From Chlamydiota bacterium (GTDB taxonomy: Bacteria > Auribacterota > Tritonobacteria > UBA1439), in assembly GCA_012729785.1 (NCBI GenBank), contig JAAYCL010000036.1, forward strand, positions 59,174-123,173: DNA of 64,000 nt, read 5' to 3'. Within the stretch, counting starts at the first letter, position 1, and the number at the start of each line of letters is the position of its first letter. Below, one piece after another: positions 34,391 through 58,744 of this stretch. A model generated the notes under the pieces. The model was not told where the DNA came from and ran no database searches. It saw nothing but the letters and a program-made list of their open reading frames with translations. Both the position numbers and the translations under genes were made by a program.

Positions 34391-34408
34391 TGTCCGCTCT
34401 TCAGCGAG

Positions 34409-34481
34409 CGGGTGTAGCTCAGTGGTAGAGCTCCAGCTTCCCAAGCTGGCTATGAGGGTTCGATTCCCTTCACCCGCTCCA
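34409..34481 (+). tRNA. tRNA-Gly (anticodon CCC/UCC class; the anticodon loop reads as only 6 nt)
   Basis: The acceptor stem GCGGGTG/CACCCGC is followed by T and CCA. The D-arm is GCTC-AGTGGTA-GAGC. The T-arm GAGGG-TTCGATT-CCCTT is identical to E. coli glyU. The anticodon stem CCAGC/GCTGG encloses TTCCAA. Confidence 0.8.
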
Positions 34482-43804: not shown

Positions 43805-43832
43805 ACCGCGGCGCCCGCCCGCCGTGCGTCCC

Positions 43833-45908
43833 ATGCGCATCAGGATCCAATCGAAGATACTCGCCAGCTTCATGGCGATGGTCGCCCTGATCATCGCCCT
43901 GCTGCTCTTCACGCTCTTCTCGATCCGCATCATGGCCGACGGCACCCGCCGGCTGGTCTACGTGCAGAAGAAGTCGGGGCTCATCACCGACCTCCAGATG
44001 ACGCTCGACCGGGCGGTCACGGCCCTCGGCGAGTATATGGTCTCGGGGAAGAAGTCGCGCCGGGCGACGTTCATCCAGCTGGTCCTCTTCTACACGAAGA
44101 ACATCGAGGCGCTCGAGCGGTCCTCCCTCGCGGGCCCGGCGGGGAAAGGGACAGGCGACGCCCGCGAGCGCGCCGCCGTCGCCGCGCTCAAGGCCGAGAT
44201 CGCCGTCATCGACCGGAACGCCCGCGAGATCCTCTCCCTCGTCGACAGGATAGAGCGGGCGCAGGGGCACCGCCTCATCCAGGATGTCGCCGCCTCGGTG
44301 AAGGACGCGCTCGAGAAGAAGGCGGAGGGGGGGGGCGGGGGCGCGCCGTCGCAGGAGCTCGCGATGCTCGGCGGGCTGCTCGGCGTCAGCACCCGCGACG
44401 CCCAGCGGCGCCTCGCGGAGCTGGAGGTGCTGAGCCGGACCATCTCGGAGTCCGAGTCGCGCCTGAAGGAGCTCTTGCTCCAGCTCGTCGAGGCGAAGGA
44501 CCGGGCGCTCGAGAAGATCGCCGAGCTGCATGAGCTGGCCCAGCGGGAGGGGCTCCAGGCGATCGGGACGGCCACGCTCGCCGACCGGCGGGCGAGGAAG
44601 ATCAGCCTCGTCGGCGGGGTGATCGTCCTCGCCTGCGGGCTGGTGTTGGCGCTCTACCTGTCGCGGTCGTTCTCGCGGCCGATCTCCGATCTCGACCGCG
44701 GGGCGCGTCTCATCGGCGAGGGGGACTTCGATCACCGGATGGTGTTGGACACCGGGGACGAGCTGCAGGACCTCGCCGAGCGTTTCAACACGATGGCAAA
44801 GAGACTGAAGGCGTCGTACGGCGAGCTCGAGGAGCGCGTCCGCGCACGGACGCGCGAGCTCGAGGCGTCGAACCTGCAGCTGCGCCGGCTCTTCAACGGC
44901 ATCTCCGACGGCATCTCGGTCATCGACAGGGAATTCCGGATCGTCAACGTCAACGACGGCATCGCCGCCATGGTTGGACGTAACGGCGCGGAGCTTGTCG
45001 GCGGCACCTGCCACCGCGTCTACCGGGGGAGCGACAGCCCGTGCCCGGGCTGCCCCGTCGCCGAGACCTTCAGGTGCGGGACGACCTCCTCCGGGGAGGT
45101 CCGCTGGGACGTCCCCGGCGGCAAGGCGAGGGACGTGGAGATCTTCAGCTTCCCTCTCATCGAGGAGGAGGGGGCGGTGACGCACGTCATCGAGTACGCC
45201 AAGGACGTCAGCGAGAGGAAGGCGCTCGAGCGGAAGCTGTTCCAGTCGGCCAAGCTCGCCGGGATCGGCACCCTCGCCGCGGGCGTGGCGCACGAGATCC
45301 GCAACCCGCTGGGGATCATGAAGGCCTCGGCGGACATGATCAGACGGGGCAGCAAAGAGGGGGAGCAGAACTGGGAGCTCGCCGGTTTCCTGATGGAGGA
45401 GGTCGACCGTCTGAACCGCGTCGTGACGAGACTCCTCGACTTCGCGCGTCCCTCCGCGCCCAACAGCGCTCCGTGCGACCTCGCCGGGATCCTGGAGCGC
45501 GCGGTCGCCCTTGTCGGCCCGCAGCACCGTCTCCAGGACGTGGAGGTGGATCGCGCCTACGCCCCGGGGATCCCGCGCGTGCGCGCCGACGGGGAGCAGC
45601 TCTGCCAGGTCTTCCTGAACCTGATCTTGAACGCCGTGCAGGCGATGTCGGGGAAGGGGCGCCTCTCCCTCTCCACCGGAACGGGGGAGGGGGAGACGGT
45701 CGTGGCGAGCGTGGGCGACAGCGGCGGCGGCATCGTTGGGAAGGACCTGGAGCAGATCTTCGACCCGTTCTTCTCGACGAAGGAGGGCGGCGCGGGCCTC
45801 GGCCTCGCCATCGTCTACCGGATCGTGGAGGCGCACAAGGGGCGGATCGAGGTGAACAGCACGCCGGGCAAGGGGACCACCTTCACGGTGACGCTGCCGG
45901 CTGCCTGA
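43833..45908 (+). CDS. Sensor histidine kinase (transmembrane, HAMP, PAS, HisKA, HATPase_c)
   Basis: Two transmembrane helices flank a roughly 230-aa sensor domain. A HAMP-like segment is followed by a PAS domain with a CxxC pair (CPGCPVAETFRC). H-box HEIRNPLG, N-box and G2-box GGAGLGLAIV. Confidence 0.85.
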   Translation: MRIRIQSKILASFMAMVALIIALLLFTLFSIRIMADGTRRLVYVQKKSGLITDLQMTLDRAVTALGEYMVSGKKSRRATFIQLVLFYTKNIEALERSSLAGPAGKGTGDARERAAVAALKAEIAVIDRNAREILSLVDRIERAQGHRLIQDVAASVKDALEKKAEGGGGGAPSQELAMLGGLLGVSTRDAQRRLAELEVLSRTISESESRLKELLLQLVEAKDRALEKIAELHELAQREGLQAIGTATLADRRARKISLVGGVIVLACGLVLALYLSRSFSRPISDLDRGARLIGEGDFDHRMVLDTGDELQDLAERFNTMAKRLKASYGELEERVRARTRELEASNLQLRRLFNGISDGISVIDREFRIVNVNDGIAAMVGRNGAELVGGTCHRVYRGSDSPCPGCPVAETFRCGTTSSGEVRWDVPGGKARDVEIFSFPLIEEEGAVTHVIEYAKDVSERKALERKLFQSAKLAGIGTLAAGVAHEIRNPLGIMKASADMIRRGSKEGEQNWELAGFLMEEVDRLNRVVTRLLDFARPSAPNSAPCDLAGILERAVALVGPQHRLQDVEVDRAYAPGIPRVRADGEQLCQVFLNLILNAVQAMSGKGRLSLSTGTGEGETVVASVGDSGGGIVGKDLEQIFDPFFSTKEGGAGLGLAIVYRIVEAHKGRIEVNSTPGKGTTFTVTLPAA

Positions 45909-45999
45909 GACGGGCGACAAGAGACGGGAGCCGAGGCGGTCGTCTGACGTCGGGGCAACCGGTTCCGCCGCGCAGGGCGCCGGCGGAAGAGAGGAGAGG

Positions 46000-47370
46000 A
46001 TGAAGCGGCGGGTGCTGGTGGTGGACGACGAGCGGAACATGCTCCGGTTGGCGGAGATGATGCTGGGACGGGCCGGCTACGAGCCGCTCCTGGCCTCCAA
46101 CGCCGCGGAGGCGATCGACCTCCTCGCCGCGCGGCGCGTGGACCTCGTGCTGACCGACCTCAAGATGCCGGGCGGGATGAGCGGGATCGACCTGCTCCGG
46201 GAGATGCGGCGCCGGGAGATTTCGACCCCGGTGGTCATCATGACCGCCTTCGGTACCATCAAGGGGGCCGTCGAGGCGATGCGGCACGGGGCGAGTGACT
46301 TCGTCCTCAAGCCGTTCGACGTCGAGAGCATCGAGACGGTCATCGCGAAGGTCTTCGAACTGGAGAAGGTGAAGCGGGAGAACGTCTACCTCAGGGAGGA
46401 GCTCGTCCGCGCCCGCGCGGCCCCCGAGATCGTGGGCGCGAGCGGGAGGATGCGCGCGATCCACTCCCTGATCGACCGTGTCGCCCCCACCGACGCCTCG
46501 GTGCTGCTCTTCGGCGAGACCGGCACGGGGAAGGAGCTCCTCGCGCGCTCGATCCATGAAAAAAGCGCGCGGCGGGAGGGGCTCTTCGTGGCGGTGAACT
46601 GCGCGGCGATCCCCGCTCCCCTCCTGGAGAGCGAGCTGTTCGGCCATGTGCGCGGGGCGTTCACCGGGGCGGCCGCGGAGCGGACCGGCAGGTTCGAGAA
46701 GGCGGACGGGGGCAGCATCTTCTTCGACGAGATCGGGGATATGGAGCCCGCGCTCCAGGCGAAGATACTCCGCGTCCTGCAGGAGAAGGAGTTCGAGAAG
46801 GTGGGGAGCAACGAGACGATCATCGTCAACGTGCGCGTGATCGCCGCCACGAACCGGGACCTCCGTCAGATGATCCGGGACCGTCTCTTCCGGGAGGATC
46901 TGTACTACCGTTTGAACGTCGTCAGCATCACGGTCCCGCCGCTCCGCGAGCGGACCGAGGATATCCCGGCGCTCGTGGAGCAGTTCGTCGCGAAATATTC
47001 GCGGGAGTGGGGCAAGGAGACCGCCCCGCCCCCGGCGGAGGTGCTGCGGGCCCTCGCCGCCTACCCGTGGCCCGGCAACGTCAGGGAGATGCAGAACGTC
47101 ATCGAACGGGCGGTGGCGGTGAACAGCACCGGCAGGATCGGCCTCGAGGACCTCCCCCCCGAGATCGTCCGGGGCGCCGCCGCGACGCCGGAGGGGGGCG
47201 TTTCCCCCGCTCCGCCGCCGGGCCTCGACGGGGCGGTCGCCGCCCTCGAGCGGGAGCTGATCGAACAGGCGCTCCGCGATTCCAACGGGGTGAAGGCACG
47301 CGCGGCGAAGCTGCTGGGGATCAGCGAGCGGAACCTGTGGTACAAGCTGAAGAAATACGGTATCGTCTGA
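46000..47370 (+). CDS. Sigma54-dependent response regulator, NtrC family
   Basis: Receiver domain (DDE...D...K). AAA+ domain with GETGTGKE and the GAFTGA sigma54-contact motif. C-terminal Fis-type helix-turn-helix. Confidence 0.9.
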   Translation: MKRRVLVVDDERNMLRLAEMMLGRAGYEPLLASNAAEAIDLLAARRVDLVLTDLKMPGGMSGIDLLREMRRREISTPVVIMTAFGTIKGAVEAMRHGASDFVLKPFDVESIETVIAKVFELEKVKRENVYLREELVRARAAPEIVGASGRMRAIHSLIDRVAPTDASVLLFGETGTGKELLARSIHEKSARREGLFVAVNCAAIPAPLLESELFGHVRGAFTGAAAERTGRFEKADGGSIFFDEIGDMEPALQAKILRVLQEKEFEKVGSNETIIVNVRVIAATNRDLRQMIRDRLFREDLYYRLNVVSITVPPLRERTEDIPALVEQFVAKYSREWGKETAPPPAEVLRALAAYPWPGNVREMQNVIERAVAVNSTGRIGLEDLPPEIVRGAAATPEGGVSPAPPPGLDGAVAALERELIEQALRDSNGVKARAAKLLGISERNLWYKLKKYGIV

Positions 47371-47390: not shown

Positions 47391-48194
47391 ATGCATATGT
47401 CGGCGCGTGTGGCGGCGTTGCTGCTCGCGACCTCGGCCGCCGTCGGCCTCGGGGCCGAGGAGTCGCCGCGCCCGGCCGCCCCGTCCGCCGCCCCCCGGCG
47501 GCTCAGCCCCGCGGACGCGGAGTTCTGGCGGGAGCTCGCCCCGCGGCCGGCCGACCTCTGGGGGGAGACCACGGAGACGTTCAGGGGCTGGAACCTCGCC
47601 GCGGTCGCCGCGACCGCGGGGCTCGCGGGGGGGCTCGCCTTCCTCGACGCCGACATGCAGAAACCGTGGCGCGACGGCGACAGGCTGATCGGCGCCGACC
47701 TCTGCGACGTCGGCGACCTGGTCGGGCACCCGGGGGTCCAGGCCGGCGTGATGGGCCTCACCTACACGCTCGGCCAGGCGCTCGGCGACGAGACGCTCGC
47801 CAAAACCGGGAAGTCGATGGCGGAGACGATGATCTTCACCTCCCTCGCCACGGTCGCCCTCAAGGGGATCTTCAACCGCGAACGGCCCGACGGCGACGAC
47901 CATATGTCGTTCCCCTCGTGGCACGCCTCCGCGACCTTCGGGAACGCCACCGTCCTCGCGGAGTACTACGGGTGGAAGGCGGCGGTCCCGGCGTACCTCG
48001 TCTCGGCGTTCGTCGCCTGGAGCCGGGTCGAGGACAACAAGCATTTCGTGAGCGACGTGGTGGCGGGCGCCGCCGTGGGCTGCATCTTCGGGCACGCGGT
48101 GTCGCGCTACAACCTCAGGGTCCATCCGGCCGTCTCGATCGAACCGGTGCTGCTGGATGAGGGGGCCGGCGTCCAGGCCCGCGCGCGGTTCTGA
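47391..48194 (+). CDS. PAP2-family (type 2 phosphatidic acid phosphatase-like) phosphatase, secreted or membrane-associated
   Basis: Signal peptide. PAP2 motifs KGIFNRERP, SFPSWHAS and SRVEDNKHFVSDV. Starts 21 nt after the response regulator. Confidence 0.8.
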   Translation: MHMSARVAALLLATSAAVGLGAEESPRPAAPSAAPRRLSPADAEFWRELAPRPADLWGETTETFRGWNLAAVAATAGLAGGLAFLDADMQKPWRDGDRLIGADLCDVGDLVGHPGVQAGVMGLTYTLGQALGDETLAKTGKSMAETMIFTSLATVALKGIFNRERPDGDDHMSFPSWHASATFGNATVLAEYYGWKAAVPAYLVSAFVAWSRVEDNKHFVSDVVAGAAVGCIFGHAVSRYNLRVHPAVSIEPVLLDEGAGVQARARF

Positions 48195-48244: not shown

Positions 48245-50356
48245 ATGAACGGAGCATCGAGGCGGATCGCCTTTCTGGCCGCCGCGGGCATCTGCCTGCG
48301 CGCGACGGCGGCCTCCGCCTACATCGGGCCGGGCGCGGGGTTCGCCTTCCTCGGCTCGTTCGTCTTCATACTGGGGGGGATGCTCCTGGCGGTGGTCGCG
48401 CTGCTCACCCTCCCCGCGCGCATCCTCCTGGCGCGCCTGCGCGGCAGGAAGGCGTTCCGGAGGGCCGCGGCGGAGCGGGTCGTCATCGTCGGCCTCGACG
48501 GCCTCGACCCCGCCCTCGCGTCGGGGTGGATGCGGGAGGGGAAGCTGCCGAATCTCTCCGCCCTCGCCGCCGAGGGGTGCTTCTCCCCGCTGGCGACCTC
48601 GAATCCCCCGATCTCCCCGGTGGCGTGGTCGTCGTTCATCACCGGCTCGAACCCGGGCAAGCACAACGTATTCGATTTCCTGATGCCCGACCGGCGGAAC
48701 TGCCTCCCCGCCCTCTCCTCCGCCTCGATCGAACCCACGCGGAGGACGCTGCGCCTCGGGCGGCTGCGGGTCCCCCTCGGGAAGCCGACCATCCGGCTCC
48801 TCCGGAAAGGGGTCCCGTTCTGGAGGATACTCGGGGAGCACGGGATCCGCAGCGTCGTGCTCAAGGTGCCGATCACCTTCCCCCCGGAGAGATTCCGCGG
48901 CATGCTCCTCTCCGGCCTCTGCGCGCCTGATCTCAAGGGCTCCCAGGGGACATTCGCCTTCTACACCACGGCCGACCCTCCCGCCGGCTCCGTCACCGGG
49001 GGCTGCCGCGTGCGCCTGGAGGGGGACGGTCCGGTGTTCGAGACGCGCATCTCCGGTCCCCGCGACCCGTACGGGAGGGGGTTCGATTTGTCGATCCCGA
49101 TGCGGATCGAGGTCGATGCGGCGCGGGGGCTCGCCCGCCTGCGGATAGCCGGACGCTCGCACACGGTGCGGGCGGGGACGCTCTCGGACTGGATCCCTCT
49201 CGTCTTCCGCGCCCCGCTCGGCACGCGGGTCCGCGGCATCGCGCAGTTCTTCCTGAAACAGGTTGCCCCGCGCGTGGAGCTCTACCTCTCCCCCGTCAAC
49301 ATCGACCCCGAGAACCCGGCCCTCCCGGTGTCGCACCCGCGCGTCTACGCCTCGTACCTGGCCAAGGTCGTCGGCCCGTTCGCCACGCTGGGGCTCCCGC
49401 AGGACACCTGGGCGCTGAACGAGGGGATCCTCACCGACGATGCGTTCCTCCAGCAGGCGTACCGGATCCACGACAGGCTCGAAGAGATCTTCTTCCACTC
49501 CCTGAAGAGGATGCGGAGAGGGATGCTCTGCTGCGTCTTCGACACCACCGACGCCGTCCAGCACGAGTTCTGGCGCTACATGGCCGACGGCCACCCGGCG
49601 CTGAAGGGAGGGGAGCCCCCCCCCGGCCCCCCGGTGATCGAACAACTGTACCGGAGGATGGACGGCCTGATCGGGAGGGTGCGGGCGGCGCTGGGGCCGG
49701 ATGACGTGTTGATGGTCGTCTCCGACCACGGCTTCACGCTGTTCAAACGCTGCGTGAACCTGAACCGGTGGCTGTTCGAGAACGGCTACCTCGCCCTCAA
49801 GGACGGCGCCTCGTCGTGCGGGGACTGGTTCGAGGGGGTCGACTGGGAGCGGACGAGGGCGTACGGGTTCGGCCTTTCGGGGCTCTACCTCAACCTGAAG
49901 GGGCGGGAGAGCCGGGGCACGGTGACGCCGTCGGAGGCGGGGGCGCTGAAGCGGGAGATCGCGGGGAGGCTCGCGGGGCTCAGGGACGTCGCGGGGGGCG
50001 CGGAGGCGGTCGCAGCGGTGTACGATACCGCCGCCGTCTACGCCGGCCCCTACGTCGAGAACGCCCCGGACCTCGTGGTGGGGTACGCGCCGGGGTTCCG
50101 CTGCTCGTGGGAATCGGTCACCGGCAGGGTCGGCGCGCAGGTCTTCTCGGACAACGACAAGGCGTGGAGCGCCGACCATTGCATCGACCACCGGTTCGTG
50201 CCGGGGGTCTTCTTCTGCAGCCGGCCGGCGGCGGCGGAGGCACCGCGCATCGTGGACATCGGCCCGACCGTGCTCGACCTGTTCGGCGTCGCGCCCCCCG
50301 CGCACATGGACGGCCGGCCGCTCGGCGTGGCGGGGAAAGGGATGCGGAACGGATGA
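48245..50356 (+). CDS. Alkaline-phosphatase-superfamily protein, type I phosphodiesterase/nucleotide pyrophosphatase-like, N-terminal membrane anchor (paralog 1)
   Basis: A transmembrane helix, then VVIVGLDGLDP (metal site) and ATSNPPISPVAWSSFITGSNPGKH (nucleophile region homologous to the nucleotide pyrophosphatase TFPNHYSIVTG). C-terminal VVSDHGF metal site. 703 aa. Confidence 0.75.
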   Translation: MNGASRRIAFLAAAGICLRATAASAYIGPGAGFAFLGSFVFILGGMLLAVVALLTLPARILLARLRGRKAFRRAAAERVVIVGLDGLDPALASGWMREGKLPNLSALAAEGCFSPLATSNPPISPVAWSSFITGSNPGKHNVFDFLMPDRRNCLPALSSASIEPTRRTLRLGRLRVPLGKPTIRLLRKGVPFWRILGEHGIRSVVLKVPITFPPERFRGMLLSGLCAPDLKGSQGTFAFYTTADPPAGSVTGGCRVRLEGDGPVFETRISGPRDPYGRGFDLSIPMRIEVDAARGLARLRIAGRSHTVRAGTLSDWIPLVFRAPLGTRVRGIAQFFLKQVAPRVELYLSPVNIDPENPALPVSHPRVYASYLAKVVGPFATLGLPQDTWALNEGILTDDAFLQQAYRIHDRLEEIFFHSLKRMRRGMLCCVFDTTDAVQHEFWRYMADGHPALKGGEPPPGPPVIEQLYRRMDGLIGRVRAALGPDDVLMVVSDHGFTLFKRCVNLNRWLFENGYLALKDGASSCGDWFEGVDWERTRAYGFGLSGLYLNLKGRESRGTVTPSEAGALKREIAGRLAGLRDVAGGAEAVAAVYDTAAVYAGPYVENAPDLVVGYAPGFRCSWESVTGRVGAQVFSDNDKAWSADHCIDHRFVPGVFFCSRPAAAEAPRIVDIGPTVLDLFGVAPPAHMDGRPLGVAGKGMRNG

Positions 50357-52320
50357 ACAGACGGAGAACGGCGACGGCGGCGGTGGCCGCGGCGCTCGTC
50401 TGCGCGTGCCTCCTCCCGGGCTGCGCGCCGCGGGATCGCTCCGGCGGGAAGCGGGTCGTCGTCCTCGCCTTCGACGGGATGGACCCCCGGATCGTGCGCG
50501 AGATGTTCGCCAAAGGCGGGCTGCCGAACATGAAAAGACTGTCGGAGACCGGCGGCTTCACCGAGCTCTGGTCGAGCGTCCCGCCGCAGAGCCCGGTCGC
50601 CTGGTCCAATTTCATCACCGGCAAGAACCCCGGGGGGCACGCCATCTTCGACTTCATCCACCGGGATCCCGCCACCTACCTGCCGTTCCTCTCCACCTCG
50701 GAGACGATCCCCCCGCGCCGCACGCTCGCCCTCGGCGACTACATCCTGCCCCTCTCCGCAGGGACCGTGCTCCTCAAGCGCGAGGGGAAGGCGTTCTGGG
50801 AGTACCTCGAGGAGGGCGGGATACCGGCGACGATCTTCAGGATCCCCTCCAACTTCCCCCCCGTCCCGGGCCGCGCGCAAAGCCTCTCCGGGATGGGAAC
50901 GCCGGACCTGATGGGCACCTACGGGATCTACCAGTTCTTCACGAGCGACCCCGCCGACATCCCGAAGGACCCCTCGGGCGCCGAGTTCACGCTGGTCGAG
51001 CCCCGGGACGGCGCCGTGCGGGCGGAGATCGCGGGCCCCGCGAACTCCTACCGCAAGGAGGCGCCGCGGCTCTCCATCGCCTTCACCGCCTGGATCGACG
51101 AGGCGCACGGCGCCGCCAGGATCGATCTGCCCGGCGAAAGCCTGATCCTGCGGCAGGGGGAGTGGAGCGACTGGCTGGTCCTCGAGTTCAAGCCCCTCGC
51201 GCTGGCCCCGGCGGTGCGGGGGATCTGCCGCCTGTACCTGAAGGAGGTCCGGCCCCGATTCAGACTGTACGTCACTCCGATCAACATCGACCCGAAGGCC
51301 CCCGCACTCCCGATCGACACCCCCCGCGGCTACGCCGCCGGGGTGGCGGAGGCGGTCGGCTATTTCTACACGCAGGGGATGCCGGAGAACACGAAGACGC
51401 TCACCAACGACACCTTCACCATCGACGAGTTTTACACGCACTTCCGGATGGTTCTGGACGAGAACCACCGCCTCTTCGACCATATCTGGGAACGGTACCG
51501 CGACGGCCTCCTCTTCTACTACTACTCGAGCACCGACCTCGGCACGCACATCTTCTGGCACCTCCGCGACCCGAAGCATCCGATCCACAACGCGCAGGCG
51601 CGCGCGCGCCTCGGCGACGTGATCGAGGAGACCTACGCGGAGATGGACGGGGTGGTCGGGAAGGTGATGGCCGAGATCGGCGACGGCGCCACGCTCATCG
51701 TGATGTCGGACCACGGCTTCGCGCCGTTCTACGTCTCGTTCAATCTGAACGGCTGGCTGCGGGAGAACGGCTACCTGGTCCTGAGGGACGGGGCGGCGGA
51801 GGGGTCGCTCTTCACGAACGTGGACTGGCGGAAGACGCGCGCCTACGCCATCGGCCTGAACTCCCTCTACCTGAACCTGGCGGGGAGGGAGCGGGACGGG
51901 ATCGTCGATCCGGGGGCGGAGCGGGACGCGCTCCTGCGGGAGCTCGCCGCGAAGCTGGAGGCGGTGCGGGACCCGGGGAACGGCTCGGCCGTGATCAAGC
52001 GGGTCTACCGCGCGGACGAGGTCTACTCGGGCGAGTATGCGGGGCGGGCCCCCGACCTTGTGGTCGGCTACGACTGGGGGTACCGGACCTCGTGGGAGAG
52101 CGCCCTGGGCGACGTGAAGGGGACGCTCCTCGCCACGAGCACCGAGGAGTGGAGCGGCGACCATTGCGGCGCGATGGAGGTCGTGCCGGGCATCCTCTTC
52201 TCGAACAAGAGGATCGCCCTCACGGATCCGCACCTCTACGATCTGACGCCGTCCATCCTCGCGGAGTTCGGGCTCCCGAAGCCCGCGGATATGATCGGCC
52301 GCAACGTCTTCGAACAGTGA
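50353..52320 (+). CDS. Alkaline-phosphatase-superfamily protein, type I phosphodiesterase/nucleotide pyrophosphatase-like lipoprotein (paralog 2)
   Basis: Lipobox LLPGC. VVVLAFDGMDP, SSVPPQSPVAWSNFITGKNPGGH and VMSDHGF motifs. ATGA overlap with paralog 1. About 40% identical to paralog 1 in colinear blocks. Confidence 0.75.
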   Translation: MNRRRTATAAVAAALVCACLLPGCAPRDRSGGKRVVVLAFDGMDPRIVREMFAKGGLPNMKRLSETGGFTELWSSVPPQSPVAWSNFITGKNPGGHAIFDFIHRDPATYLPFLSTSETIPPRRTLALGDYILPLSAGTVLLKREGKAFWEYLEEGGIPATIFRIPSNFPPVPGRAQSLSGMGTPDLMGTYGIYQFFTSDPADIPKDPSGAEFTLVEPRDGAVRAEIAGPANSYRKEAPRLSIAFTAWIDEAHGAARIDLPGESLILRQGEWSDWLVLEFKPLALAPAVRGICRLYLKEVRPRFRLYVTPINIDPKAPALPIDTPRGYAAGVAEAVGYFYTQGMPENTKTLTNDTFTIDEFYTHFRMVLDENHRLFDHIWERYRDGLLFYYYSSTDLGTHIFWHLRDPKHPIHNAQARARLGDVIEETYAEMDGVVGKVMAEIGDGATLIVMSDHGFAPFYVSFNLNGWLRENGYLVLRDGAAEGSLFTNVDWRKTRAYAIGLNSLYLNLAGRERDGIVDPGAERDALLRELAAKLEAVRDPGNGSAVIKRVYRADEVYSGEYAGRAPDLVVGYDWGYRTSWESALGDVKGTLLATSTEEWSGDHCGAMEVVPGILFSNKRIALTDPHLYDLTPSILAEFGLPKPADMIGRNVFEQ

Positions 52321-52450
52321 GGGGTCGATCGGCGCCGCCGGGGGACGCAACGCGGCTCCTAGACGGAGGCGGAGCGTCGCGACGGACGCGGGCGACGGGG
52401 ACAGACGAAACGATCCGCGAAGATCCGCGGCACGAGCAGGGGAGGCGCAG

Positions 52451-52642
52451 ATGGCCAGGAAGGTGAGGATCGAGGAGGGGCTGTACGGGAAGATCGAGAA
52501 GGCCGCGGCCGCGGCGGGCTATCCGAACGTCGATGAGTTCGTGGTCCATCTTCTCGAGAAGGCCGTCGCCGGAGTCGGCGGCGGAGACGACGACGCGGAA
52601 CGGGTGAAGGAGCGGCTCAGGGGGCTCGGGTACCTCTCATGA
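52451..52642 (+). CDS. Ribbon-helix-helix (CopG/Arc/NikR-N-like) small DNA-binding protein
   Basis: 63 aa: KVRIEEGLYGKIEKAAAAAGYPNVDEFVVHLLEKAV fits a beta-strand, helix, helix ribbon-helix-helix fold. ATGA overlap with the downstream membrane protein. Confidence 0.5.
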   Translation: MARKVRIEEGLYGKIEKAAAAAGYPNVDEFVVHLLEKAVAGVGGGDDDAERVKERLRGLGYLS

Positions 52643-53454
52643 TCAGTGCCGCGGGACAGGCGCTGACGCGCCTCTTCGATCTGATTCTCCTCCCGGCGAG
52701 GGGCGCCGCGCCGGTCTGGGGGATCGCCCTCGCCGCCCTCCTGACGGCCGCGGGCGTCCTCATCTCCTACCGGCTCGTCTCCGACCAGGATGCGATACGC
52801 CGCCTCAAGAAGCGCGTCCAGGGGCACCTCCTCGGCATCTACCTGTACCGGGACGACCCGCGCGCGATGCTCGGCTCCCTCGGCCGGGTCTGGTCAAACT
52901 CCATGCGGTACCTGGCATATTCCCTCGTCCCGTTCGCGGTCGCGTTCGTCCCCGTGGCGCTCGTCTGCCTGCAGCTCGATCTCCGCTACGCGCACCGTCC
53001 GCTTCGCCCGGGTGAACGCATGACCGTCTCCGTCGAGCTCGACCCAAGCGCCCCGCCCCCCGCGCTCTCCTCCACCGGCGGATTGCAGATCGAGACGGCG
53101 CCCCTGGCGATCGGCGGCACCGGGGAGACGAACTGGAGGGTGCGCGCGGTCGCGCAGGGCGCGCAGGCGGTCACGGTCGCCGTCGGCGAGGAGACGCTCG
53201 CCCTCCCCGTCGCGGTCGGCGGGGCGGCGCGGCCGCTCTGCCGCCGGCGGCTTCGGTCCCCCGTGCGGCAGGGGCTTCTCTGCCCCGCGGGCGATCCGAT
53301 ACCCCGCGGGAGCGCGGTGCGGGCGGTGCGGGTCTCCTACCCCCCCGAGCGGGTCCGCCTGGCGGGGATGCGCCTGCACTGGAGCGCCTCCTTTTTCGTG
53401 CTCGCCCTCGCCTTCGGCCTGCTTCTGAAAAGGCCGTTCGGAGTTGATTTCTGA
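52639..53454 (+). CDS. Hypothetical membrane protein (about 4 transmembrane helices), no recognisable family
   Basis: Hydrophobic segments at the N-terminus, middle and C-terminus, with an Ala/Gly-rich soluble loop. Translationally coupled to the ribbon-helix-helix gene. Confidence 0.4.
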   Translation: MISAAGQALTRLFDLILLPARGAAPVWGIALAALLTAAGVLISYRLVSDQDAIRRLKKRVQGHLLGIYLYRDDPRAMLGSLGRVWSNSMRYLAYSLVPFAVAFVPVALVCLQLDLRYAHRPLRPGERMTVSVELDPSAPPPALSSTGGLQIETAPLAIGGTGETNWRVRAVAQGAQAVTVAVGEETLALPVAVGGAARPLCRRRLRSPVRQGLLCPAGDPIPRGSAVRAVRVSYPPERVRLAGMRLHWSASFFVLALAFGLLLKRPFGVDF

Positions 53455-53472
53455 CCTCGGGGCGGCTATACT
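53444..53472 (+). promoter_or_regulatory. Putative sigma70-type promoter, TTGATT -17 nt- TATACT, for cysDN
   Basis: -35 TTGATT at 53444-53449, a 17-nt spacer, -10 TATACT at 53467-53472. It lies 43 nt before the cysD TTG start, with an AAGGA RBS in between. Confidence 0.4.
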
Positions 53473-53514
53473 GTCGCTCTCCAAACAGTGCGCCCGGCAA
53501 CAAAAGGACGACCA

Positions 53515-54318
53515 TTGGACCACCTCTCTGAACTCGAGCACAAGACGATCTATGTCGTGCGGGAGGCGTACAGCCGCTTCCGCAACATCGGGATGCTCTG
53601 GTCGATCGGCAAGGACTCGACCTCGCTCCTCTGGATCTGCCGCAAGGCGTTCTTCGGGAAGGTCCCGTTCCCGGTCATCCACATCGACACCGGCCACAAG
53701 TTCAAGGAGATCTACGCATTCCGGGACCGCTACGCGAAGGAGTGGGGGCTCGACCTGCGGGTCGCGAAAAACGACGCGGCGCTCGCCGCCGGGATGGGGC
53801 CCGACAAGGGGGCGAAGCTCGACTGCTGCCATGCCCTCAAGACGCAGGCCCTGAAGGAGTTCATCGCCCGCGAGAAGCTCGACGCCATCCTCCTCGGCAT
53901 CCGCCGCGACGAGCACGGCATCCGGGCCAAGGAGCGCTACTTCTCGCCGCGCGACGAGAAGTTCGAGTGGGACTACCAGAACCAGCCCCCCGAGCTCTGG
54001 GACCAGTTCAAGTCCAGCAGCGAGGGGCACCACCACCTCCGCGTGCATCCGATCCTCCACATGACCGAGACCGACATCTGGCGTTACGTTCGGCGGGAGG
54101 GGATGCCGGTGGTCGACCTGTATTTCGCCAAGGGGGGGAGGCGCTACCGCTCGATCGGCTGCGCCTGCTGCTGCGCGACCGTGGAGTCGGACGCGGAGAC
54201 CGTCGACGCCGTCATCCGCGAGATAGAGACGACGAACGTCTCCGAGCGTTCGGGGCGGGCGCAGGACAAGGAAGACGCGTACACGATGCAGAAGCTGCGG
54301 GCGCTCGGCTACATGTGA
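53515..54318 (+). CDS. cysD: Sulfate adenylyltransferase subunit 2
   Basis: PP-loop SIGKDS. Colinear with E. coli CysD from its N-terminus ([17 protein letters not shown] versus THLRQLEAESIHIIRE). TTG start with an AAGGA RBS 6 nt upstream. The upstream in-frame GTG at 53488 lacks an RBS. Confidence 0.9.
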
Positions 54319-54343
54319 ACGGCGGGCGGCGAAAGGGAGATCG

Positions 54344-55594
54344 ATGGCGCAGACACGCGGGCGCGAGAACATGAAGATCGTCATCGTGGGCCATATGGAC
54401 CACGGCAAGTCCACCCTCATCGGGCGGCTCCTCTACGATACCCGTTCGCTCTCCCCCGACCGGATGGAGGTCATCCGGAAGACGTGCGAGGAGATGGGGA
54501 AGCCGGTCGAGTTCGCCTTCGTGATGGACCACCTCCGCGAGGAGCGGGAGCGGGGGATGACGATCGACACCGCCCAGACCTTCTTCCACACCGCGCGCCG
54601 CGACTACGTGATCATCGACGCCCCCGGGCACAAGGAGTTCATGAAGAACATGATCACCGGGGCGAGCCAGGCCGAGACGTCCATCCTCATCGTGGATGTG
54701 CATGAAGGGGTGATGGAGCAGACGCGGCGGCACGCCTATGTGCTCGGGATGCTCAACCTGAGGAAGAACATCCTGGTCCTGAACAAGATGGACCTCGTCG
54801 GTTACGACAAGGCGGCGTTCGAGCGCGTGCGCGGCGAGATCGCCGCCTTCCTCAAACGTCTGGGGATCGCCCCCTCGTTCGTCATTCCGGTCTCGGGGAC
54901 CGGCGGGGACAACTTCGCCTCCCCCTCCGGGAAGATGCCCTGGTACAAGGGGCCGACGCTCATCGACGCCCTCGACACCCTCGAAAAGGACCGGGACCTC
55001 AGGGAGAAGCCGCTCCGGATGCCCGTGCAGGACGTTTACGAGCGGGAGGCGGGGCGCATCGTCGCGGGCAGGATCGAATCCGGCTCGCTTCGCGAGGGGG
55101 ACGCGGTGAGGATCTTCCCCGGGGAGGAGCGGGCGACCGTGGCGAAGGTTCTCGAGTTCGGCGCGACGCGCGCCTCCGCGGAGGCGGGGGAGTGCATCGG
55201 CGTGCTGCTCTCGGGGGGGGCGGCGCCGCGGCGCGGCGATCTCCTGGGAGCCCTCGGCGACCCCCCGCGCCTCGGTACGGCGGTCAGCGCGAACCTGTTC
55301 TGGATGGCCGCGGAGGCGTGCGCGGCAGGCGAGAGGCTCACGTTGCGCCTTGGAACGCAGGAGACGCCCTGCAGGATCGAAACGATCGGGAAGAGGATCG
55401 ACTCCTCGACGCTCGACGTCATCGAGGAGAACGCCCGCGCGCTCGAAGAGACCGAGGTGGGCGAGGTCCTGGTCCGCACCGAACGCCCGGTCGCCTTCGA
55501 GCTCTTCAGCGACATCCCCGAATTGGGCCGTTTCGTCCTCGAGAGGGGGAACGACATCGTCGCCGGGGGGATCATCACCCGTCCCGGCCCCTGA
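54344..55594 (+). CDS. cysN: Sulfate adenylyltransferase subunit 1 (GTPase), short form without APS kinase domain
   Basis: G1 [10 protein letters not shown]3 DAPGH and G4 NKMD motifs. 416 aa ending after translation-factor domain III. No CysC domain. Confidence 0.9.
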
Positions 55595-55610: not shown

Positions 55611-56897
55611 ATGCCTCCCCGCCCGCGCGCGGTCATCGTCGGCCTCGACGGCGTACCCCACCGGCTCATCGAGCGGTACGCCTCCGACGGGACGATGCCG
55701 AACCTCGGGGCGATACTCGCGACCGGGACGCTCCGGAGGATGGCCTCCTCCATCCCGGAGATCTCCTGTGTCGCCTGGAGCACGATCATCACCGGCAGGA
55801 ACCCGGGCGTTCACGGCATCTACGGGTTCATGAACCTGCGGCCGGGCACCTACCAGTTCTCGTTTCCCGCGTTCGGAGACCTGAAGGCGCCTCCGTTCTG
55901 GGAGGAGATGCCGGACACGCGGGCCGCGATCGTCAACATCCCGGGCACCTATCCCGCGCGCACCATGAACGGGGTTACCGTGTCGGGTTTCGTAGCCCTC
56001 GACCTCGCGCGGGCGACATATCCGAAACACCTCATCCCGGAGCTCGAGCGGCTCGGCTACCGGATCGACGTGGACGCGGCCAAGGGCCACTCCGACATCG
56101 ACGCCTTCCTGCGCGACCTCGACGCGACGCTCGAGGCGAGGATCCGGGCGGCCCGCTTCCTGCTCGCACGGGAGCGCTGGGATATCTTCTTCCTCGCCTT
56201 CACCGGGACCGACCGGCTCTCCCATTTCCTCTTCGAGGCGTTCGAGAACGACGCCCACCCCCGCGCCGGCGCCTTCCGGGCGCACTTCAAACGGATCGAC
56301 GGCTATCTCGGCGAGCTGTACGAGACAGTCGGGGCCGACGATCTCCTTGTGCTGCTCTCCGACCACGGCTTCGACCTCGTCGAGACGGAGATCAACGTCA
56401 ACAGGGCCCTCGCCGACGCCGGCTTTCTGAAGATCGCGAGCCCGACACGGGATTCGTTCGAAGGGGTGGGGGAGGGGAGCCGGGCGTTCGCCCTCGATCC
56501 CGCGCGGATTTATGTCAACCTCCGGGGGCGGTACCCGCGCGGATGCGTCGATCCCGGCGACCGGGAGCGCGTCGCCCGGGACGTCGCCGGCGCCCTCCAG
56601 GATCTCTCGGTGAACGGGAGGCCGGTGATCCGCAGCGTCTTCTCGAGAGAGGAGCTCTATGCGGGGAGCCGGATCGCCGAGGCCCCCGATCTCGTGCTCC
56701 TGCCCCGGCGGGGGTTCGATCTGAAGGGGCGCCTCGCCGCACCGGCGCTGGTCTCCAGGGGCGTCTTCACCGGGATGCACACGCACGACGACGCGTTCCT
56801 CTTCGTGCGATCCTCGGCCATCCCGCCGTCGGAGATCCCCGCCGCGCCGTGGGTCGGGGATGTGCGCGCCCTCGTCGAGCGCGGGCTCGCCGGCTAG
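55611..56897 (+). CDS. Alkaline-phosphatase-superfamily protein, type I phosphodiesterase/nucleotide pyrophosphatase-like, cytoplasmic (paralog 3)
   Basis: No signal peptide. VIVGLDGVPH, ASSIPEISCVAWSTIITGRNPGVH and LLSDHGF motifs parallel paralogs 1 and 2. AAAGGAG RBS. Confidence 0.75.
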   Translation: MPPRPRAVIVGLDGVPHRLIERYASDGTMPNLGAILATGTLRRMASSIPEISCVAWSTIITGRNPGVHGIYGFMNLRPGTYQFSFPAFGDLKAPPFWEEMPDTRAAIVNIPGTYPARTMNGVTVSGFVALDLARATYPKHLIPELERLGYRIDVDAAKGHSDIDAFLRDLDATLEARIRAARFLLARERWDIFFLAFTGTDRLSHFLFEAFENDAHPRAGAFRAHFKRIDGYLGELYETVGADDLLVLLSDHGFDLVETEINVNRALADAGFLKIASPTRDSFEGVGEGSRAFALDPARIYVNLRGRYPRGCVDPGDRERVARDVAGALQDLSVNGRPVIRSVFSREELYAGSRIAEAPDLVLLPRRGFDLKGRLAAPALVSRGVFTGMHTHDDAFLFVRSSAIPPSEIPAAPWVGDVRALVERGLAG

Positions 56898-57094: not shown

Positions 57095-58744
57095 ATGAAC
57101 GCGAACAAGCGGCTCTACTCGATCAGCCCCTCCGGGGCTAAATTCCCGCTGCCCCGTCCGGAGGAGTACCCCAGGGAGTTCGCCCGGGTGAAGAAACTCG
57201 CCGCGGCCCACCGAAAGGAGAAGCGGGAGGTCGTGGTGGTGATGGGGGTCGGGTTCGTCGGCGCCGTGATGGCGGCGATCGTCGCGGACAGCAGGGGGAA
57301 GGGCGGCAGGCCGTCGAAGTTCGTGATCGGGATGCAGCGCCCGAGCGTCCGCTCCTACTGGAAGATACCGCTCCTCAACCGCGGCGTCCCCCCGGTGGAG
57401 GCGGAGGACCCCGAGGTGGCGCGGATCATCCGCCGCTGCGTCCTCGAGACGAAGACCCTTGTCGCGACCTGGGTCTACGACGTGCTCTCCCTCGCCGACG
57501 TGGTCGTCGTGGACGTCCAGTGCGACTACGCCAAGTACGCCCTCGGCGACGTGCGCAAGGGGTGGGCCGACATCGCCGCCCTCGAGGAGTCGCTGGAGAT
57601 CATCGCCCGGCATATCCGGCCGGAGACGCTGGTCCTCATCGAGACGACCGTGCCCCCCGGGACGACCGAGCAGGTGGCGTACCCGATCATGCGGAAAACG
57701 TTCCGGAAGCGCGGCATCGCCTCCGATCCGCTCCTCGCCCACAGCTACGAGCGGGTGATGCCGGGGAAGGAGTACGTCGCCAGCATCCGCGACTTCTGGC
57801 GCGTCTGCAGCGGGATCAATCCCCGGGCCCGGGAACGGGTGGTGCGGTTCTTGAACGAAATCCTGAACACGAAGCGGTACCCGCTCACCGTCCTGGACCG
57901 TCCGATCGAGTCGGAGACCGCGAAGATCGTCGAGAACAGCTACCGCGCCGCCTGCCTCGCGTTCCTCGACGAGTGGAGTCTCTTCGCCGAGCGGAACGGC
58001 GTGGACCTGGTCAAGGTGATCAACGCGATCAAGGTGCGCCCCACGCACTCCAACATCATCTTCCCGGGCCCCGGCATCGGCGGCTACTGCCTGCCGAAGG
58101 ACGGCGGGCTCGGGATGTGGGCCTACCGGCATATCCTGGGCTTCGAGGACGAGATCTTCAAGATCACCCCGCTCGCCATCGACATCAACGACACGCGAGG
58201 CCTCCATGCGGCCCAGATCACGCGGGACGCCCTGCGGAACATGAACCGCCCGGTCGCCGCGGCGGAGATCCTGCTCCTCGGCGCCTCGTATCGCGAGGAC
58301 GTCGGCGACACCCGCTACAGCGGGTCCGAGATCATTGCGCGGCGCCTCTCGGAGATGGGGGCGGAGATCAGGGTCCATGACCCGTACGTGCGGTCGTGGC
58401 CGGAGCTGGAGAAGCAGGAGTCGTACCCCGGGAAGGGGCACGGGAAGAAGGGGTTCTTCCGCGGGCAAAACCGGCTCGCGGAGGTGCGGGTCTGCAGCGA
58501 CCTCGAGAAGGGGCTCTCCGGCGCGGACGCGGTGATCTTCGCCGTCCGGCACGCGCCGTATCTGCGCCTCGATCCCGACGAGGTGGTCCGCATGATCGGG
58601 GGGGCCGCCGCGATCATCGACTGCTTCGGCATGCTCGACGACGCGAAGATCAAGCGGTACTTCGAGCTCGGCTGCGAGGTGAAGGGGCTGGGGCGCGGGC
58701 ATATCCAGCGGATCAAGGACGAGGTGCGGAGGGAGCGGCGGTAG
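57095..58744 (+). CDS. Nucleotide-sugar dehydrogenase (UDP-glucose/GDP-mannose dehydrogenase family), long form
   Basis: Rossmann motif VVVVMGVGFVGAVMAAIVA and the catalytic GGYCLPKD region. 549 aa, with a roughly 45-aa basic N-terminal extension before the first beta-strand. Confidence 0.85.
   Translation: MNANKRLYSISPSGAKFPLPRPEEYPREFARVKKLAAAHRKEKREVVVVMGVGFVGAVMAAIVADSRGKGGRPSKFVIGMQRPSVRSYWKIPLLNRGVPPVEAEDPEVARIIRRCVLETKTLVATWVYDVLSLADVVVVDVQCDYAKYALGDVRKGWADIAALEESLEIIARHIRPETLVLIETTVPPGTTEQVAYPIMRKTFRKRGIASDPLLAHSYERVMPGKEYVASIRDFWRVCSGINPRARERVVRFLNEILNTKRYPLTVLDRPIESETAKIVENSYRAACLAFLDEWSLFAERNGVDLVKVINAIKVRPTHSNIIFPGPGIGGYCLPKDGGLGMWAYRHILGFEDEIFKITPLAIDINDTRGLHAAQITRDALRNMNRPVAAAEILLLGASYREDVGDTRYSGSEIIARRLSEMGAEIRVHDPYVRSWPELEKQESYPGKGHGKKGFFRGQNRLAEVRVCSDLEKGLSGADAVIFAVRHAPYLRLDPDEVVRMIGGAAAIIDCFGMLDDAKIKRYFELGCEVKGLGRGHIQRIKDEVRRERR

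What the first reader, a model, noticed from the sequence alone, without database searches (positions are those of the whole stretch)
53515..55594. CysDN with a TTG start, its own TTGATT-17-TATACT promoter, and no APS kinase
CysD aligns with E. coli CysD only if translation starts at TTG 53515, which has an AAGGA RBS 6 nt upstream. The listed ORF start at 53488 is a GTG without an RBS. CysN stops after domain III at 416 aa, with no CysC fusion and no cysC neighbour. A third nucleotide-pyrophosphatase paralog follows 17 nt later. An APS-producing module coupled to an enzyme that hydrolyses nucleotides or phosphoanhydrides is unusual.
Basis: partly seen in the sequence, partly recalled or inferred. 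Interest (0 to 1): 0.5.

Follow-up and report, generated by a model that had tools for sequence, protein, structure and literature searches.

The report
Conserved cysDN–alkaline-phosphatase-family sulfate cassette
The two genes that activate sulfate (cysD, cysN) are followed here not by the usual APS kinase but by an uncharacterised alkaline-phosphatase-superfamily enzyme, and this three-gene arrangement recurs across many bacterial and archaeal phyla, which points to an undescribed step in sulfur metabolism.

Summary
cysD starts at TTG 53515: the two closest relatives have ATG at the same codon, and public gene calls give 267 aa. cysN (416 aa) ends after domain III with no kinase domain. A cytoplasmic PF01663 protein ("AP428") starts 16 nt later. 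No APS kinase lies within 54 kb upstream or about 18 kb downstream of cysN. The promoter match is real but is no more than chance would give, and relatives do not conserve it.

The cysD-cysN-AP428 coupling is not a quirk of this genome.
- Of 58 AP428-family loci with both flanks, 45 have AP428 directly next to cysDN, an APS kinase, a stand-alone CysD-like gene, or an SQD1-like gene plus thioredoxin.
- In a reverse sample, 7 of 7 short-CysD loci have a PF01663 gene adjacent and no cysC or cysH nearby.
- One natural AP428–CysD-like fusion protein exists.
- CysD, the linked APS kinases, small RHH-like proteins and many AP paralogues share a C-terminal ...RLxxLGY[LIVM] tail.

AP428 has an intact NPP/PhnA-like two-metal site with a Ser nucleophile. 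My best reading (about 0.4, inferred) is that it consumes APS directly by sulfuryl transfer, in place of CysC or CysH. The main rival is a CysQ-like PAP phosphatase. I found no literature on it.

The parts
53444..53472 (+). sigma-70-like promoter match, TTGATT-17-TATACT
   Evidence: 9 of 12 consensus positions, the only hit in 15 kb, with 0.7 expected by chance. It overlaps the stop of the upstream gene. L004 and L006 do not conserve it.
53504..53508 (+). AAGGA ribosome-binding site, 6 nt before TTG 53515
   Evidence: Read from the sequence.
53515..54318 (+). cysD, short type (267 aa): PP-loop SIGKDS motif and C-terminal tail ..KLRALGYM
   Evidence: NF003587 scores 340 bits against a cut-off of 195. 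The equivalog models TIGR02039 and NF009214 fall below their cut-offs. Orthologues start with ATG at the same codon. The top 120 homologues (67-87% identity) are 265-319 aa, nearly all 267 aa.
54344..55594 (+). cysN (416 aa), EF-1alpha-like GTPase with no APS-kinase domain
   Evidence: TIGR02034 scores 350.7 bits against a cut-off of 336.1. The CysNC model is matched only over positions 19-432 of 632. G motifs [13 protein letters not shown] and NKMD are present. The best PDB match is archaeal aEF1alpha 3WY9 at 305.9 bits, above canonical CysN 1ZUN_B at 258.8 bits.
55611..56897 (+). AP428: cytoplasmic alkaline-phosphatase-superfamily enzyme (PF01663, NPP/PhnA-like) with a Ser52 nucleophile
52451..52642 (+). 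sm63: small RHH-like protein ending in the CysD-like tail ..RLRGLGYLS
   Evidence: Homologues in 19 loci all carry the tail. No Pfam hit.
52639..53454 (+). mem271: membrane protein of unknown function; its start overlaps the sm63 stop by 4 nt
   Evidence: It travels with AP703-AP655-sm63 in 11 loci (cluster 12).
50353..52320 (+). AP655: PF01663 paralogue with a twin-Arg/lipobox-like N-terminus; its start overlaps the AP703 stop
   Evidence: The catalytic motifs are intact (own reading).
48245..50356 (+). AP703: PF01663 paralogue with the N-terminal motif AYIGPGAG, a TM helix and a basic stretch
47391..48194 (+). PAP2-family phosphatase with a signal-peptide-like N-terminus; first gene after the regulator pair
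43824..47370 (+). Sensor histidine kinase (43824-45908) and NtrC-type sigma-54 response regulator (46000-47370) upstream of the operon
   Evidence: They are not PrsK/PrsR (below cut-offs). No -24/-12 match lies nearby.
57095..58744 (+). NDP-sugar dehydrogenase-like gene (549 aa), 197 nt downstream of AP428
   Evidence: TIGR03026 scores 186.4 bits against a cut-off of 189.8. Among the related loci it gave tblastn hits only in the identical-locus copies L001-L003, plus weak hits elsewhere in L043 and L071.

Best explanation
cysD-cysN-AP428 is a dedicated sulfate-activation cassette. CysD, driven by the CysN GTPase, makes APS from sulfate and ATP; this is shown only by family membership. AP428, an NPP/PhnA-like two-metal enzyme with a Ser nucleophile, sits where cysC follows cysN in cysDNC operons. 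I propose that it takes APS directly and passes on the sulfuryl group, probably through a Ser52-O-sulfate intermediate. This would make an APS kinase unnecessary.

Two outlets are compatible with the evidence:
(a) Transfer to a thiol such as thioredoxin, which releases sulfite. AP428 would then be a functional analogue of APS reductase.
(b) Transfer to a hydroxyl of an envelope glycan or lipid precursor.

The membrane-associated or exported paralogues AP703 and AP655, sm63 and mem271 belong to the same conserved module. Everything after 'makes APS' is inference from gene context, not demonstrated chemistry.
For: 1) Gene order. Of 63 AP428-family loci with at least 2.5 kb upstream, 24 carry cysN just upstream, mostly at 0-30 nt. 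These span Planctomycetota, Omnitrophota, Sumerlaeota, Fraserbacteria, Nitrospirae and Auribacterota; a Woesearchaeota locus carries cysDN a few kb downstream in the same cluster. All CysN are 387-422 aa, and none of these loci has cysC.
2) Reverse sampling. Seven of 7 short-CysD loci, picked without regard to context, have an adjacent PF01663 gene. None has PF01583 or a second PAPS_reduct gene within 6 kb.
3) In a neighbour-joining tree, AP428 orthologues that follow cysDN are interleaved with orthologues that precede an SQD1-like gene plus thioredoxin.
4) L018 (Planctomycetia) and L059 (a DPANN archaeon) carry cysD, cysN, AP428, an SQD1-like gene and trx together. No cysC or cysH is found in the roughly 19-21 kb held for each locus. 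From established knowledge of the SQD1 reaction, SQD1 needs sulfite, so AP428 is the only unassigned gene for the APS-to-sulfite step.
5) In the other clade, AP428 follows APS kinase (14-17 loci) or a stand-alone CysD-like gene. Its neighbour is therefore always a sulfonucleotide-forming enzyme.
6) A natural fusion protein joins an AP428 domain to a CysD-like domain (P0428).
7) CysD, the linked APS kinases, sm63 proteins and AP/sulfatase paralogues share a C-terminal tail: 108 hits against 0-2 in shuffles.
8) The catalytic site is intact and conserved.
Against: - No biochemistry exists for any member of the family.
- From established knowledge, two-metal Ser/Thr enzymes of the AP superfamily favour phosphoryl over sulfuryl transfer.
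- The nearest folds are phosphodiesterases and a phosphonatase.
- AP428 has no conserved Cys, which known APS/PAPS reductases need.
- In L039 a canonical PAPS sulfotransferase directly follows the AP428 homologue. That arrangement fits a PAP phosphatase better.
- Haloarchaeal homologues (about 35% identity) can sit in unrelated neighbourhoods.
- The window contains no thioredoxin, SQD1 or sulfite reductase that would name a sink.
- cysC or cysH could lie elsewhere in the genome. I could not search for them.
Confidence: 0.4

Rival explanations
1. AP428 is a 3'-phosphoadenosine-5'-phosphate (PAP/PAPS) 3'-phosphatase. It would be a non-homologous replacement for CysQ, removing the toxic by-product of PAPS-dependent sulfation or reduction. 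cysC and the PAPS consumer would lie elsewhere in the genome.
For: - Phosphomonoester hydrolysis via phospho-Ser is the classic chemistry of the superfamily (established knowledge).
- AP428 homologues directly follow APS kinase in 14-17 loci.
- In L039 the order is cysC - AP428 homologue - Sulfotransfer_1.
- From my own knowledge, cysQ clusters with cysDN/cysC in some bacteria.
Against: - None of 24 cysDN-AP428 loci, and none of 7 reverse-sampled loci, has cysC or a CysNC fusion.
- The window and about 10 kb beyond it lack cysC.
- This reading does not explain the fusion to a CysD-like domain.
- It does not explain the operon with exported or membrane-bound paralogues.
- It does not explain the self-contained cysDN-AP428-SQD1L-trx clusters.
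Confidence: 0.2
2. AP428 is a hydrolase that pulls or tunes the sulfurylase reaction. It would hydrolyse pyrophosphate or excess APS, or act as a general nucleotide pyrophosphatase, with no group transfer.
For: - The fold is closest to nucleotide pyrophosphatases/phosphodiesterases.
- From established knowledge, the ATP sulfurylase reaction is unfavourable and is helped by PPi removal.
- One haloarchaeal homologue sits beside an inorganic diphosphatase.
Against: - APS hydrolysis would waste ATP and GTP.
- From established knowledge, soluble pyrophosphatases are ubiquitous.
- Linkage to APS kinase, which releases no PPi, is not explained.
- Linkage to SQD1-like plus thioredoxin is not explained.
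Confidence: 0.1
3. There is no direct coupling. cysDN is ordinary assimilatory sulfate activation feeding an APS reductase encoded elsewhere. The PF01663 paralogues are phosphate- or envelope-related esterases that merely share regulation with it.
For: - From established knowledge, cysDN without cysC is common in APS-reducing bacteria.
- A PAP2 phosphatase and a two-component regulator lie upstream.
- Haloferax larsenii's homologue has no sulfur genes as neighbours.
Against: - The adjacency holds at 0-30 nt across many bacterial phyla, and the same genes also cluster in archaea, in both search directions.
- A fusion protein exists.
- A C-terminal tail is shared with CysD and CysC.
Confidence: 0.08

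Closest known systems
E. coli-type cysDNC operon / CysN-CysC fusions (sulfate to APS to PAPS)
   Same: It has a CysD PP-loop subunit and a CysN GTPase in the same order, with a third gene immediately after cysN.
   Different: The third gene is an AP-superfamily enzyme, not an APS kinase. CysD is a short 267-aa subtype that lacks a segment of about 33 residues present in P. syringae CysD and falls below equivalog cut-offs. CysN scores as well against EF-1alpha models as against CysN models.
APS-reducing assimilation (cysH with cysDN, e.g. rhizobial and pseudomonad type; named from my own knowledge)
   Same: No APS kinase is needed. APS would be the branch-point intermediate.
   Different: No PAPS_reduct-family reductase lies in or near the cassette. 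AP428 has a different fold and no conserved Cys.
Nucleotide pyrophosphatase/phosphodiesterase (Xac NPP, ENPP4/6/7) and phosphonoacetate hydrolase PhnA
   Different: The nucleophile is Ser, not Thr. By my own alignment from a recalled Xac NPP sequence, the residue equivalent to NPP Asn111 is an invariant Phe73. AP428 is cytoplasmic. Sequence similarity to PDB entries is only E about 1e-4.
CysQ / other PAP phosphatases
   Same: The role could be the same, and the clustering with sulfate-activation genes is similar.
   Different: The fold is unrelated. From established knowledge, CysQ belongs to the inositol-monophosphatase family. No activity data exist.
SQD1/SqdB/Agl3 UDP-sulfoquinovose synthase clusters
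   Same: In 15-17 related loci, AP428 orthologues directly precede a full-length SQD1 homologue. It scores 403 bits against NF041015, below the 575 cut-off.
   Different: These SQD1-like proteins carry an extra N-terminal domain with 5 invariant Cys and are always followed by a thioredoxin gene. The window itself has no such gene.

Membership tests
CysD (sulfate adenylyltransferase subunit 2) | PP-loop motif SxGKDS and a family HMM score above the curated cut-off | tested here: met
   SIGKDS at residues 30-35. NF003587 scores 340.1 bits against a cut-off of 195.
CysD (sulfate adenylyltransferase subunit 2) | Equivalog-level match (TIGR02039 / NF009214) | tested here: not met
   The scores are 252 bits against cut-offs of 396.6 and 413. 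A segment of about 33 residues present in P. syringae CysD (1ZUN_A, residues 232-264) is missing.
CysD (sulfate adenylyltransferase subunit 2) | An adjacent CysN partner | tested here: met
   cysN starts 25 nt after the cysD stop.
CysN (GTPase subunit) | G1, G3 and G4 motifs and TIGR02034 above its cut-off | tested here: met
   [13 protein letters not shown] and NKMD are present. The score is 350.7 bits against 336.1, a narrow margin; the EF-1alpha model scores 350.9 bits, below its own cut-off of 502.
Bifunctional CysNC / APS kinase | A C-terminal PF01583 kinase domain, or a separate cysC nearby | tested here: not met
   Only positions 19-432 of the 632-position model are matched. There is no tblastn hit in 64 kb and no PF01583 in the flanking gene calls.
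Alkaline-phosphatase superfamily, NPP/PhnA branch (PF01663) | The fold plus two-metal ligands (3 Asp, 3 His) and a nucleophile after a GLDG strand | tested here: met
NPP proper (nucleotide pyrophosphatase/phosphodiesterase) | A Thr nucleophile and the Asn that binds the phosphoryl oxygen | tested here: not met
   Ser52 is invariant. The aligned position of Xac NPP Asn111 is the invariant Phe73 (the alignment to NPP is my own reading of a recalled sequence).
Type I sulfatase (PF00884) | The C/S-x-P-x-R formylglycine motif and the sulfatase HMM | tested here: not met
   AP428 gives no PF00884 hit. Its sequence contains no CxPxR motif.
Assimilatory APS/PAPS reductase (CysH) | The PAPS_reduct fold with a catalytic C-terminal Cys | tested here: not met
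   AP428 has a different fold. No Cys is conserved across 81 sequences. A similar working role is not excluded.
CysQ-type PAP phosphatase | The inositol-monophosphatase fold; PAP hydrolysis | not testable with these tools
   The fold differs. The activity can only be assayed.

The most novel reading that the evidence does not exclude
AP428-type proteins are a new class of sulfonucleotide-using enzymes built on the alkaline-phosphatase fold. They would take the sulfuryl group of APS (or PAPS) and hand it to thioredoxin, yielding sulfite without a CysH-type reductase, or to glycans. They would work in a complex in which CysD, APS kinase, small adaptor proteins and AP/sulfatase paralogues dock through a common C-terminal ..RLxxLGY[LIVM] tail, possibly onto the EF-1alpha-like CysN.
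Probability: 0.25. Interest if true: 0.85.

Novelty: new variant of a known kind. Interest (0 to 1): 0.65.

Why it matters
Sulfate assimilation and sulfation are thought to be well mapped: ATP sulfurylase, then APS kinase or APS reductase, then PAPS sulfotransferases.

This cassette links the activating enzyme to an uncharacterised enzyme family. The family has about 2,000 clusters at 50% identity with E <= 1e-30 and at least 583 hits in species-representative genomes, most of them in uncultured lineages.

If AP428 uses APS directly, three things would follow:
- It would fill the missing reductase or sulfotransferase step in organisms that seem to lack one, including DPANN, Asgard and Thermoplasmata archaea that carry SQD1-like genes.
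- It would explain how sulfated or sulfonated envelope glycans are made there.
- It would add a new chemistry to a textbook superfamily.

The idea can be tested directly with three recombinant proteins.

Tried and rejected
- My first Pfam and NCBIfam calls (10, 11) used the spurious ORF 50406-52466, which gave no hits. The real second paralogue is 50353-52320, in another frame.
- Literature searches found nothing relevant: COG3379; cysDN plus nucleotide pyrophosphatase; 'APS-dependent sulfotransferase'; 'AlkP-core domain protein'; sulfoquinovose plus sulfate adenylyltransferase plus thioredoxin; phosphosulfate plus AP superfamily.
- I followed a memory lead that Haloferax Agl7 (HVO_2046), needed for sulfation of dolichol-phosphate-hexose (PMC3892788), might be an AP-family protein. 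The papers held do not state its family, and the supplement is not held. A search with a haloarchaeal homologue returned no protein named Agl7. The lead is unverified and is not used as evidence.
- The haloarchaeal orthologue in Haloferax larsenii has no sulfur genes around it.
- A canonical sulfotransferase is not the general partner: it occurs in only 1 of about 80 loci.
- I found no sigma-54 promoter match near the operon and no Rfam element.
- The afdb50 fold library was unavailable.
- I considered AP428 as a phosphoglucomutase analogue for nucleotide-sugar synthesis and rejected it, because that does not explain the linkage to cysDN and cysC.

Full report
**The locus**

The window has about 70% G+C. 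It comes from an uncultured bacterium common in wastewater and digester metagenomes: the identical CysN is indexed in 235 assembly blocks. Its nearest genome relatives are an unnamed MAG (L006) and Candidatus Tritonobacter lacicola of Candidatus Auribacterota.

A same-strand gene row runs as follows:
- histidine kinase, 43824-45908
- sigma-54 response regulator, 46000-47370
- PAP2 phosphatase, 47391-48194
- AP703, a PF01663 protein, 48245-50356
- AP655, a PF01663 protein, 50353-52320
- sm63, 52451-52642
- mem271, 52639-53454
- cysD, 53515-54318
- cysN, 54344-55594
- AP428, a PF01663 protein, 55611-56897
- NDP-sugar dehydrogenase-like gene, 57095-58744

**Checking the observation**

Start codon. 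The TTG start is now well supported:
- Both closest relatives have ATG at the homologous codon.
- The CysD profile aligns from residue 1.
- Independent gene calls give 267 aa.
- The top 120 homologues are 265-319 aa, nearly all 267 aa.

Promoter. The match (9 of 12 positions, 17-nt spacer) is the only one in 15 kb, but 0.7 are expected by chance. Half of it is coding sequence of the upstream gene, and relatives do not conserve it. In L004 the gap is only 15 nt, which suggests co-transcription with the upstream genes. It stays a possibility only.

CysN. It has all the GTPase motifs and stops after domain III. The bifunctional CysNC model is matched only up to position 432 of 632.

APS kinase. 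No APS kinase, Sulfotransfer_1, SQD1 or thioredoxin gene is detectable in the 64-kb window. None appears in the Pfam-annotated genes of the next 10 kb.

**What AP428 is**

AP428 has no signal peptide.
- Its AF2 model is confident, with pLDDT 90.6.
- Sequence similarity to any solved structure is marginal, at E about 1e-4.
- The six metal ligands and a Ser nucleophile (S52) are each conserved in at least 90% of both clades of an 81-sequence alignment. No Cys is conserved.
- All database names are generic, such as 'alkaline phosphatase family protein' or COG3379-type 'AlkP superfamily phosphohydrolase/phosphomutase'.
- I found no paper on the family or on its link to cysDN.

**Comparative genomics**

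The family is large. It has at least 583 hits in species-representative genomes of Bacteria and Archaea. It has 1,984 clusters at 50% identity with E <= 1e-30.

I clustered ORFs around 80 loci. Of 58 loci with both flanks, 45 have the AP428 homologue directly beside a sulfur-activation or sulfur-using gene:
- A: cysD-cysN immediately upstream, mostly at 0-30 nt. This holds in 24 of the 63 loci with at least 2.5 kb upstream. All these CysN are 387-422 aa.
- B: an APS kinase 100-160 nt upstream, confirmed as PF01583 at 205 bits.
- C: an SQD1-like gene immediately downstream, always followed by a thioredoxin gene.
- D: a stand-alone CysD-like gene upstream (37-38% identity to CysD, same C-terminus). 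In Nitrospira japonica this pair is wedged between prsK and prsR.

Thirteen loci carry the AP703-AP655(-sm63-mem271) module, with or without cysDN. Only six loci have none of these.

A neighbour-joining tree splits the family in two. The window's clade mixes contexts A and C. The other clade holds B, D and the module-only loci.

Two loci carry cysD, cysN, AP428, the SQD1-like gene and trx together: L018 (Planctomycetia) and L059 (Woesearchaeota). Neither has cysC or cysH in the roughly 19-21 kb held.

The link also holds in reverse. All seven have cysN and an adjacent PF01663 gene, and none has an APS kinase or a second PAPS_reduct gene within 6 kb. One of the seven repeats an earlier locus.

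A natural fusion protein joins an AP428 domain to a CysD-like domain (P0428).

A cultured example exists on a Halopiger xanaduensis plasmid. A CysD-like gene, a PiT-family transporter and an AP428 homologue lie inside a glycosylation cluster that also holds sulfatase-family and GT4 genes.

**A shared tail**

I noticed that sm63 ends like CysD, so I scanned all stop-bounded segments for LGY[LIVMF] at the C-terminus. There were 108 hits in 13,150 segments, against 0-2 in shuffles. All but one fall into a few families:

| Family | Hits |
|---|---|
| short CysD | 30 |
| large PF01663 paralogues | 29 |
| sm63-like small proteins | 23 |
| the linked APS kinases, on a C-terminal extension of about 50 aa | 17 |
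| sulfatase-family proteins | 4 |
| CysD-like, stand-alone | 3 |
| AP428-like | 1 |

The tail is preceded by an acidic stretch. Canonical P. syringae CysD ends similarly.

The window's CysN matches archaeal aEF1alpha (3WY9) better than canonical CysN. From my own knowledge, that entry shows EF-1alpha binding the acidic-hydrophobic tail of a ribosomal stalk protein. Docking of these tails onto CysN is therefore a testable analogy, not a result. Two sulfatase-family tail-bearers have Tat/lipobox-like N-termini. A membrane-targeting role is therefore an alternative.

**Interpretation**

Shown:
- the anatomy of the locus
- family memberships
- the absence of cysC nearby
- the conserved, bidirectional linkage between short cysDN and PF01663 enzymes
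- the fusion protein
- the shared tail

Inferred: what AP428 does.

Its neighbour is always an enzyme that makes APS or PAPS, or one that needs sulfite. None of the 24 cysDN-linked loci has cysC. I therefore favour direct use of APS by sulfuryl transfer, at about 0.4. Two outlets are possible: sulfite formation with a thiol or thioredoxin, which best fits the cysDN-AP428-SQD1L-trx clusters, or O-sulfation of envelope glycans, which best fits the glycan and EPS contexts and the many AP/sulfatase paralogues.

The chemically conservative rival is a CysQ-like PAP phosphatase, at about 0.2. It fits the cysC-linked clade, and especially L039, where a canonical sulfotransferase follows. Pure hydrolase roles and mere co-regulation are less likely.

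**Verdict**

The start codon and the lack of a kinase are ordinary annotation points. It is a good comparative-genomics lead to an unknown step in sulfur metabolism, but its mechanism is unproven.

Noticed in passing
window 52451-52642 and 54295-54318; related loci L004-L095: A C-terminal tail, an acidic stretch followed by (K/R)xRLxxLGY[LIVM]-COOH, is shared by short CysD, stand-alone CysD-like proteins, APS kinases next to AP428 homologues, small RHH-like proteins (the sm63 family), large PF01663 paralogues and some sulfatase-family proteins. It gives 108 hits in 13,150 segments, against 0-2 in shuffles. The receptor is unknown.
   Followed up: partly
L014, L017, L018, L021, L033, L034, L036, L045, L046, L049, L055, L057, L059, L061, L064, L071, L073 (directly downstream of the AP428 homologue): The SQD1-like proteins (full-length match to the UDP-sulfoquinovose synthase model, below its cut-off) carry an N-terminal extension of about 75 aa with five invariant Cys (HN..TCWNCPA..VDFRxCGQ..ECxRR..C..W). 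Each is followed by a thioredoxin gene wherever enough downstream sequence is held.
   Followed up: partly
window 48245-48460 (AP703 N-terminus); L089 8230-8433 and 8459-8700; L093 9787-10083: AP703-type proteins, and small ORFs beside them, share the N-terminal motif AY(I/V)(D/G)PG(S/A/T)G followed by a TM helix and a basic stretch. This suggests a common membrane anchor or sorting element of unknown kind.
   Followed up: no
L083 532-6361 (Nitrospira japonica): A stand-alone CysD-like gene and an AP428 homologue are inserted between the PEP-CTERM system regulators prsK (536 bits) and prsR (647 bits). L039 has EpsI (DUF3485), Wzy and a sulfotransferase around its copy. Both link the family to exopolysaccharide systems.
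   Followed up: partly
P0428 (707 aa, from the 50%-identity representative library): A natural fusion joins an AP428-type PF01663 domain (residues 8-397) to a CysD-like PAPS_reduct domain (residues 472-668). It ends in ..QLRTLGYM.
   Followed up: partly
window 54344-55594: This CysN scores higher against archaeal EF-1alpha (3WY9, 305.9 bits) than against the only solved CysN (1ZUN_B, 258.8 bits). It passes the CysN model cut-off only narrowly.
   Followed up: partly
window 62444-63928 (- strand): A 494-aa PALP-family, cysteine-synthase-like protein scores far below the cysK cut-off. L006 conserves it near the cassette at 82% identity. It may be a sulfur-using enzyme related to the cassette.
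   Followed up: no
plasmid collection; L084 (Halopiger xanaduensis pHALXA01): All 55 plasmid records with an AP428 homologue are haloarchaeal. In pHALXA01 the homologue lies in a glycosylation cluster with a CysD-like gene, a PiT-family transporter, two to three sulfatase-family genes and three GT4 genes.
   Followed up: partly
window 34408-34481: A single tRNA-Gly(CCC) is the only Rfam or ARAGORN hit in the 64-kb window.
   Followed up: no
window 46000-47370 and the operon start at 47391: An NtrC-type sigma-54 activator sits directly upstream of the operon, but no -24/-12 consensus match was found near it. Matches across the window were fewer than in shuffles.
   Followed up: partly
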